In this document: piece by piece, positions 20,134-20,244 of the stretch
Layout: each line of letters begins with the position of its first letter
How positions within the stretch are numbered: the stretch's first letter is position 1
Origin: Balamuthia mandrillaris
Taxonomy: Eukaryota
Direction of reading: 5' to 3'
Assembly: GCA_031835245.2 (NCBI GenBank)
Contig: JAVKOQ020000076.1
Span: 124,001-188,000 of the forward strand
Length of the DNA stretch: 64,000 nt
Position numbers and translations under genes: made by a program
The notes under the pieces: model-generated
Databases searched by the model: none
Seen by the model: only the letters and a program-made list of their open reading frames with translations
What the model was told of the DNA's origin: nothing

Positions 20134-20244
20134 GCGGCCACGGAGGACCTTTCCGCCCATCAAGAGCGAAGCAATACAGATGATGCAACGTTCAAAGCGT
20201 CGTATTGCCCCCTGCCTCTTCTCTCCTCTTCAAACACACCTTTC

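What the first reader, a model, noticed from the sequence alone, without database searches (positions are those of the whole stretch)
20161..20174. Y RNA-like Ro60-binding signature: terminal stem with a single bulged C and an oligo-U tail
Seen: 5' CAAGAG-C-GAAGCAA pairs perfectly with 3' TTGCTTC-CTCTTG (20477-20489), leaving exactly one bulged C (20167) followed by GAAG, and the 3' strand runs straight into T11. Known: Y RNAs bind Ro60 through a 5'/3' terminal helix with a bulged C, bacterial YrlA 5' strands carry a GNCGAAN(0-1)G motif, and La binds the 3' oligo-U. Here the sequence is AGCGAAG, one mismatch from that motif. Inference: this could be a protist Y RNA whose effector domain is a full tRNA mimic, bridging bacterial YrlA and animal Y RNAs.
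Basis: partly seen in the sequence, partly recalled or inferred. Interest (0 to 1): 0.8.

Follow-up and report, generated by a model that had tools for sequence, protein, structure and literature searches.

The report
Amoeba RNA with swapped-halves tRNA mimic
The flagged stem closes a transcribed RNA of about 330 bases in the amoeba Balamuthia mandrillaris that contains a transfer-RNA look-alike with its halves swapped; it likely serves as a tether held at its end stem by a Ro60-type protein, a binding that is untested here but would make it a Y-like RNA of a kind not found in our literature searches for amoebae.

Summary
The stem, the single bulged C20167 and the T11 run are real. They mark the ends of an expressed ~330-nt RNA (about 20162-20493) in Balamuthia mandrillaris. 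RNA reads pile up exactly there, with near-empty flanks, and 16 reads join its 3' end to position 20160-20162. Inside is a tRNA with swapped halves: T arm, 7-bp acceptor closed by a loop, D arm, anticodon arm, opened at the variable arm. It has leucine marks (G37, A73) but a serine anticodon, so it is likely a mimic rather than a decoder. The Ro60 signature itself is weak. The strict YrlA motif is not met. The site scores at the low end of phage Y-like RNAs. The RNA is over twice the length of known Y RNAs, and no Rfam family reaches threshold. Whether the amoeba has Ro60 could not be tested. Vault RNAs also have a bulged end helix bound by a TROVE protein (TEP1), which fits as well. The tRNA part is eukaryote-type, so a bridge from bacterial YrlA is not supported. 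Verdict: a real, apparently undescribed tRNA-mimic RNA; TROVE-bound tether 0.4, Ro60 specifically about 0.22.

The parts
20126..20133 (+). TATA-like TATTTATT, 36-29 nt upstream of the inferred start; candidate upstream Pol III element (inferred)
   Evidence: sequence; upstream TATA use by permuted tRNA genes in PMC3978253
20162..20493 (+). Noncoding RNA of about 330 nt; strand inferred from tRNA sense and T tract; 3' end approximate
   Evidence: read pile and head-to-tail joints; fold z -5.1 and -5.5
20162..20174 (+). 5' strand of terminal helix with bulged C20167; candidate TROVE-protein site
20179..20203 (+). 5' strands of the outer helices, pairing with 20454-20476
   Evidence: most pairs P 0.5-1.0
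20205..20229 (+). 5' strand of the long C/U-rich helix that carries the tRNA module at the variable-arm position
   Evidence: P 0.95-0.98 for 20214-20227
20245..20261 (+). T arm (B box); C20244 can form the G15:C48 pair with G20293
20262..20285 (+). 7-bp acceptor stem (20262-20268 with 20279-20285) closed by a 10-nt loop; A20269 is the discriminator (A73)
   Evidence: read depth falls here
20286..20304 (+). D arm of eukaryote class II (Leu/Ser) type (A box, lying downstream of the B box)
20305..20321 (+). Anticodon arm: UGA at 20312-20314, G37 at 20315
20337..20365 (+). 3' strand of the long helix
   Evidence: variant 20346 G>A keeps the pair
20374..20450 (+). 3' domain: two small hairpins and a long hairpin 20404-20450; no Rfam match
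   Evidence: variant 20408 A>G keeps the pair
20477..20489 (+). 3' strand of terminal helix
   Evidence: variant 20480 C>T keeps the pair as G-U
20490..20500 (+). T11 tract, likely Pol III terminator and U tail
   Evidence: depth falls to under 3 beyond 20493

Best explanation
This is a transcribed, predicted highly folded ~330-nt noncoding RNA of Balamuthia mandrillaris containing a swapped-halves tRNA look-alike, and it likely works as a Y-like tether whose bulged end helix would be gripped by a TROVE-domain protein (Ro60, or the vault protein TEP1) while the tRNA-shaped end would engage tRNA-handling proteins. Shown: expression limited to the element, ends matching the stem, the permuted tRNA arms, and Leu marks with a Ser anticodon. 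Inferred: Pol III transcription from an upstream TATA-like element plus B box; origin from the host's own tRNA-Leu(UAA) by tandem duplication and loss of the outer halves; La on the U tail; and either RNase P/Z opening of the acceptor loop or tRNA-type modifications, to explain the read gap. Untested: any protein partner. The 0.40 splits into about 0.22 for Ro60 and about 0.18 for TEP1 or another TROVE protein.
For: Depth reaches 88 and 145 in X15 and X16 inside the element, against at most 3 in the adjacent flank bins and at most about 4 over the LeuRS gene. Sixteen reads in 3 of 3 raw runs join 20481-20491 to 20160-20162, so the ends lie together. Fold z is -5.1. The order is T arm, closed acceptor, D arm, as in YrlA; RF02553 core scores 21.4 bits, and a phage YrlA beside its Ro gene also stays below threshold at 32.5 of 69. 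A matrix from 23 phage Y-like 5' strands scores this site in the top 1.1% of C-centred sites in the window, and it is the first C of the RNA. 0 of 11 low-noise read variants break a confident pair, 3 of 3 at paired sites keep it; 2.05 breaks expected, P 0.077. A 7-bp acceptor in M. smegmatis YrlA is cut by RNase P (PMC4201824). Trypanosome vault RNA has a bulged terminal helix and binds TEP1 (second-hand in PMC9326685). TEP1 is reported in amoebozoa (PMC3762200).
Against: The strict GNCGAAN(0-1)G motif is not met. Position -1 is G where 23 of 23 phage sites have a pyrimidine, though my selection pattern imposed that. The matrix score (4.1 bits) exceeds only 4 of 23 left-out sites. The phage RNAs show a short stem with unpaired bases on the 3' side near the C, whereas here 7 perfect pairs follow. 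Length is 330 nt against 80-130 nt for characterised Y RNAs and about 190 nt for the longest vault RNA. No Rfam Y_RNA or vault match at E up to 10. An unrelated repeat scores higher on YrlA (24 bits), so that score only reflects tRNA arms. No TROVE domain in the window (best E 1.3). No homolog was found. Five variants from more divergent reads do break confident pairs in the reference register. The expression data come from one study, and the libraries look unstranded.
Confidence: 0.4

Rival explanations
1. A tRNA-mimic RNA with no TROVE partner. The end stem only protects the ends. The acceptor loop would be opened and CCA added, giving a two-piece, possibly leucine-chargeable decoy or scaffold for synthetases, elongation factor or stress sensors.
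For: Perfect 7-bp acceptor, A73, G37 and intact D/T loops. Depth falls over 20249-20309 to 4.8 against 36 and 31 on either side (X15) and to 21.6 against 45 and 52 (X16); only 2 and 16 reads cover 20271. The gene downstream encodes a leucyl-tRNA synthetase. A bulged C in a helix is common by chance.
Against: No read end or CCA was seen at 20269 in the listed tables (table 6 empty; 25 loose-end rows not shown). The gap could be reverse-transcriptase stops. The neighbouring synthetase is bacterial-type, likely mitochondrial. The 5' strand does resemble Y-like sites more than most.
Confidence: 0.27
2. A transcribed tRNA-derived repeat (SINE-like or mobile-element head) with no selected function.
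For: Reads show several sequence classes, some with 12-13 other differences, so more than one copy or allele exists. A permuted tRNA-Ser-like module occurs in 5 of 35 metagenome loci as an identical core with three different upstream flanks, like a repeat.
Against: Only one copy in 64 kb. No A-rich tail at the end of the transcript. B box lies before A box, unlike SINE heads (established knowledge). Common variants spare the helices (P 0.077). All tRNA arms are intact.
Confidence: 0.15
3. A circularly permuted tRNA gene: the RNA is a precursor, circularised and trimmed to a working tRNA(UGA), as in red and green algae.
For: 3' half before 5' half, short intervening loop, upstream TATA-like element and downstream T tract match PMC3978253. 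Re-ordered in silico with a short variable arm, ARAGORN calls tRNA-Ser(TGA) in 3 of 4 trials. Head-to-tail joints could be a circular intermediate.
Against: Known junctions are 20/21, 37/38, 50/51 and 59/60 with a bulge-helix-bulge. Here the break is in the variable arm, and the predicted helix is continuous; the 53 formal BHB registers are slips within it or improbable. No joint near the variable arm was listed. G37 and A73 were found in 22 of 22 Leu and 0 of 22 Ser tRNAs, so a product would risk putting leucine at serine codons. The long form is abundant.
Confidence: 0.08
4. A very divergent housekeeping RNA of similar size (SRP, RNase P/MRP, telomerase RNA, U3) that has absorbed a tRNA domain.
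For: Size, abundance, paired ends and U tail fit that class.
Against: No Rfam match on the element at E up to 10. Recalled motifs for the telomere template, SRP helix 8, box C/D and Sm site are absent; there is one loose P4-like match at 20377.
Confidence: 0.07

Closest known systems
YrlA bacterial and phage Y RNAs (Rfam RF02553; PMC4201824; bioRxiv 10.1101/312249)
   Same: T arm before D arm, acceptor closed by a loop, tRNA domain mounted on a stem formed by the two ends; 5' strand resembles the motif (CGAAG).
   Different: Opened at the variable arm with a full anticodon arm, where YrlA lacks the anticodon loop. 330 nt against about 100-150. Extra 3' domain. Eukaryote-type D arm. No Ro gene nearby. 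Strict motif missed.
Animal Y RNAs (Ro60/La RNPs; PMC4030889, PMC11277228)
   Same: Terminal helix with a single bulged C near the 5' end, and a U tail.
   Different: Context GAGCGAAG instead of GGUCCGA; C at position 6, not 9; three times longer; animal Y RNAs have no tRNA domain. The opposing 3-nt bulge (recalled from Green 1998, not readable here) is absent.
Vault RNAs bound by TEP1, including trypanosome TBsRNA-10 (second-hand via PMC9326685, PMC7916137)
   Same: Protist Pol III-type RNA with a bulged terminal helix and tRNA-type A and B boxes.
   Different: Boxes in reverse order, complete permuted cloverleaf, 330 nt against 84-190, no Rfam vault match.
Circularly permuted tRNA genes of algae and Thermofilum (PMC3978253)
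   Same: 3' half before 5' half, short intervening loop, upstream TATA-like element, T tract.
   Different: Junction in the variable arm with no BHB; about 250 nt of structured flanks; mixed Leu/Ser identity; long form is abundant.
Two-piece (permuted) tmRNA (Rfam RF04321)
   Same: T arm then acceptor closed by a loop; 16.6 bits.
   Different: Keeps an anticodon arm, has Leu-type rather than Ala-type acceptor (recalled), eukaryotic nuclear; far below the threshold of 47.

Membership tests
Y RNA (animal and YrlA) | Binds Ro60/Rsr | not testable with these tools
   Needs RIP or EMSA.
Y RNA (animal and YrlA) | Organism encodes Ro60 | not testable with these tools
   No genome held. No TROVE in this 64-kb window. 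No TROVE or Ro60 term in two small supplements, which hold no gene tables.
Y RNA (animal and YrlA) | Helix formed by 5' and 3' ends | tested here: met
   ends match the read pile and joints.
Animal Y RNA | Bulged C within GGUCCGA | tested here: not met
   Bulged C is present, but the context is AGAGCGA (motif).
YrlA | GNCGAAN(0-1)G near 5' end | tested here: not met
   One mismatch. The strict motif was found in only 3 of 27 modules beside phage Ro genes, so failing it is not decisive. Matrix score is at the low end of the range.
YrlA | T arm, closed acceptor, D arm in permuted order | tested here: met
YrlA | Ro stem replaces the anticodon arm; no anticodon loop | tested here: not met
   Anticodon arm is intact at 20305-20321; the stem leaves from the variable position.
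YrlA | Rfam RF02553 gathering score 69 | tested here: not met
   21.4 bits, core only. Controls: phage YrlA 32.5, unrelated repeat 24.
Y RNA (animal and YrlA) | Length about 80-150 nt | tested here: not met
   About 330 nt.
Y RNA (animal and YrlA) | Bulged C conserved in homologs | tested here: inconclusive
   No homologs found. No variant listed at 20161-20174, but only about 39 reads cover that end.
Vault RNA | Binds TEP1 or the vault | not testable with these tools
   Needs co-precipitation.
Vault RNA | Internal A and B boxes; bulged terminal helix | tested here: inconclusive
   Both boxes are present but reversed; helix present; no Rfam vault match.
Circularly permuted tRNA gene | 3' half upstream of 5' half | tested here: met
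Circularly permuted tRNA gene | BHB motif at the junction | tested here: not met
   no BHB in the favoured fold; one 3-4-nt bulge at 20353-20356 only.
Circularly permuted tRNA gene | Mature tRNA produced | tested here: inconclusive
   No joint near the variable arm, but such libraries capture tRNA poorly.

The most novel reading that the evidence does not exclude
The first amoebozoan Y RNA: a Ro60-bound, 330-nt RNA built independently from the host's tRNA-Leu, opened at the variable arm, processed at the acceptor loop into a two-piece or circular form, and tethering Ro60 to tRNA-recognising machinery. It would show that tRNA-mimic Y RNAs arose separately in eukaryotes.
Probability: 0.22. Interest if true: 0.85.

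Novelty: new variant of a known kind. Interest (0 to 1): 0.62.

Why it matters
Ro60 and TEP1 are reported in single-celled eukaryotes, yet their RNA partners are described for few of them (trypanosome vault RNA). This is a concrete, expressed candidate with a single base (C20167) to test. It also makes the proposal that Y RNAs arise from tRNA dimers (10.1101/312249) testable in a eukaryote. Even without a TROVE partner, an abundant nuclear-encoded RNA holding a whole tRNA opened at the variable arm matches no Rfam family and none of the four permuted-tRNA junction types. Searches listed no paper describing it; that library lacks most subscription journals.

Tried and rejected
Own-genome searches for TROVE and for further copies: no genome held. 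No indexed RNA holder was listed, and contigs of run X13 do not cover the element; neither bears on expression. Comparison with DNA of other strains was not obtained, so covariation and copy number stay open. Pattern scans: 11 viral loci, 10 of them ordinary tandem tRNA clusters; 35 metagenome loci, 30 tandem clusters and 5 an unrelated repeat, with similarity limited to tRNA arms; 0 in prokaryotic genomes; end-stem pattern 0 in viral contigs; blastn of phages no match. Rfam on the whole window finds only two ordinary tRNAs. Supplements of PMC10471605 and PMC8569187 (one small file each) hold no TROVE, Ro60, SS-A, vault, telomerase or lupus term; annotation tables I could not see may name such genes. 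Green 1998, Stein 2005, Kolev 2019 and two Wolin reviews were not held. I first thought D. radiodurans Yrn1 shared this layout; PMC4201824 says its arm order differs from YrlA, so I dropped that. Head-to-tail joints as proof of a circle: rejected, because a 3-read skip across the 3' domain (20368 to 20454) shows enzyme jumps across stems, and overlapping mates mean the 16 reads may be about 9 molecules. The sigma-70 scan is irrelevant to a eukaryote. No earlier notes exist on this genome.

Full report
Observation. The pairing is exactly as described: 20161-20174 pairs with 20477-20489 leaving C20167 out, and T11 follows at 20490-20500. C20167 is unpaired with P>0.999. Alone, these features are only modestly unusual in this purine/pyrimidine-rich genome. 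There are five 6+7-bp bulged-C helices in the window, one of them before a T tract. AGCGAAG occurs 23 times and the strict YrlA motif 89 times. 67 of 5000 shuffles match the end duplex.

Organism and setting. The last exon of the downstream gene is 97% identical to a protein named leucine--tRNA ligase of Balamuthia mandrillaris; most other listed relatives with names are cyanobacterial, at 39-44%. The element lies between an F-box gene on the minus strand and this synthetase gene on the plus strand. No whole genome is held.

It is a discrete RNA. Three raw RNA runs of one study were laid, 3-5% of each read (X15 162 reads, X16 222, X17 8). Summed depth per 61-nt bin from 20188 to 20492 is 36, 5, 31, 88, 63 in X15 and 45, 22, 52, 145, 96 in X16. 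The bins on either side have 0-3, and the synthetase gene at most about 4. Empty flanks argue against DNA carry-over. The libraries look unstranded, so the strand is inferred from the tRNA sense and the T tract. Sixteen reads join the 3' end to the 5' end: 20485 to 20162 (9), 20481 to 20160 with two letters of ambiguity (3), and 20491 to 20162 (4). About 39 reads cover 20175. This places the 5' end near A20162 and shows the ends lie together. It does not prove a circle: a 3-read skip from 20368 to 20454 crosses the base of a folded domain in the same way, and overlapping mates inflate counts. Contigs of X13 do not cover the element, which says nothing either way.

Anatomy. The RNA folds at z -5.1, and -5.5 on the plus strand against -4.2 on the minus. 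From the end helix, outer helices lead to a junction with two branches. One is a 3' domain (20374-20450) with no Rfam match. The other is a long helix carrying T arm, 7-bp acceptor closed by 10 nt, D arm and anticodon arm. The tRNA is thus opened at the variable arm. The anticodon is UGA (Ser), but positions 37 and 73 are G and A. Of 53 Leu/Ser tRNAs collected from fetched loci, 44 could be scored (9 dropped for lacking the T-loop pattern). G37 and A73 held in 22 of 22 Leu and 0 of 22 Ser; my scan favoured A73 in part of the set. The closest was a Leu(TAA) at 44 of 51 positions, although mean similarity did not separate the two (37.0 and 37.4). I infer descent from tRNA-Leu(UAA) with one anticodon change. 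The T-arm...D-arm pattern has 0 matches in the prokaryotic genome collection, pointing to a host origin.

Processing. Depth drops over the acceptor and D arm. Only 2 (X15) and 16 (X16) reads cover 20271, and 11 of those 16 belong to a divergent class. Excision of the loop by RNase P and Z, as shown for M. smegmatis YrlA with its 7-bp acceptor (PMC4201824, parts 1-3 of 5 read), would give this. So would stops at modified bases or at strong structure. These data cannot tell them apart.

Variation. Twenty-two substitutions inside the element were listed. The 11 seen in reads with at most 3 other differences break no confident pair, and the 3 at paired sites keep pairing (expected 2.05 breaks, P 0.077: suggestive only). 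Of the other 11, from more divergent reads, 5 break pairs in the reference register; they may come from a paralogue misaligned by indels. No variant was listed at the bulged C or its strand, at low depth.

Is it a Ro60 site? Bacterial Y RNAs conserve only the 5' strand (10.1101/312249, passages); animal ones need C9 in GGUCCGA (PMC4030889 and PMC11277228, passages). As a benchmark I took permuted modules beside phage Ro genes, found by pattern and not experimentally verified. Only 3 of 27 carry the strict motif. A matrix from 23 distinct 5' strands (24 of 25 modules had a site) scores the Balamuthia site 4.1 bits: top 0.33% of all window sites and 1.1% of C-centred sites, but above only 4 of 23 left-out true sites. 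The matrix is partly circular and purine-rich. The evidence is therefore mildly positive. Length, the intact anticodon arm and Rfam scores all fail membership tests. The 21.4-bit YrlA match is generic, since an unrelated repeat gets 24. Ro60 is absent from this window and could not be sought in the genome.

A rival TROVE partner. TEP1 is the other TROVE protein (PMC7916137, passages) and is reported in amoebozoa (PMC3762200, passages). The trypanosome vault RNA was recognised by a bulged terminal helix and binds TEP1 in a lineage without Ro (PMC9326685, passages; the primary paper was not held). The flagged stem cannot distinguish Ro60 from TEP1.

Permuted tRNA gene? The layout, upstream TATA-like element and T tract match the algal genes, but their junctions sit at 20/21, 37/38, 50/51 or 59/60 with a BHB (PMC3978253, passages). 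Here there is no BHB in the favoured fold, the identity marks conflict, and the long form accumulates.

Homologs and print. None were found in viral, metagenome, prokaryotic or phage collections; these hold few amoebae. A Balamuthia annotation paper reports tRNAs, rRNAs and a few lncRNA labels and has no mention of Rfam (PMC10471605, passages; supplement searched). For PMC8569187 I saw the listing and searched its supplement. PMC7904556 gave no hits for my terms. Searches (listings only) showed no report of this RNA; none of the 15 listed of 82 papers mention Balamuthia. Earlier scan notes on other genomes describe permuted tRNA mimics both with and without Ro60; I did not check them.

Verdict. 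The RNA is real (about 0.9) and apparently undescribed. It works like a YrlA-type tRNA mimic on a stem but is not filed as a member. TROVE-bound tether 0.40 (Ro60 about 0.22), mimic without TROVE partner 0.27, repeat 0.15, tRNA precursor 0.08, divergent housekeeping RNA 0.07. Interest 0.62.

Noticed in passing
L035, L036, L047, L051, L062 (metagenome contigs; L047 424-523): A stand-alone permuted tRNA-Ser-like module (variable arm, T arm, 7-bp acceptor closed by 6-7 nt, D arm, no anticodon stem) with a near-identical core, three different upstream flanks and a shared downstream flank. It looks like the head of a repeat or mobile element in a GC-rich, likely eukaryotic genome; L047 scores 24 bits on YrlA.
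   Followed up: partly
L003 398-455 (viral contig): A permuted T arm, 7-bp acceptor and D arm without anticodon arm inside a tRNA cluster, not called by ARAGORN.
   Followed up: partly
window 20750-25142: The gene directly downstream encodes a bacterial-type (likely mitochondrial) leucyl-tRNA synthetase, next to an RNA with a leucine-type tRNA body. This may be coincidence; two introns are confirmed by joints.
   Followed up: partly
window 20320-20330 and 20367-20377: An 11-nt direct repeat (10 of 11 identical) containing UACUUCG flanks the 3' strand of the long helix. The same short motif is recalled from vertebrate vault RNAs; not tested.
   Followed up: no
L017, L019, L020, L023, L024, L026, L027: Arrays of 2-4 Y-like RNAs upstream of phage Ro genes; several keep an extra arm after the D arm, and most lack the strict published motif.
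   Followed up: partly
window 53134-53222 and 47940-48013: Ordinary tRNA-Thr(TGT), with an insertion after the anticodon that looks like an intron, and tRNA-Asp(GTC).
   Followed up: no
window about 18200-18520: A long perfect hexamer repeat (GAGGAA), giving poly-Glu, poly-RG or poly-RK in different frames.
   Followed up: no
window 20381-20448, reads of X15 and X16: A minority read class with 12-13 other differences suggests a diverged paralogue of this RNA.
   Followed up: partly
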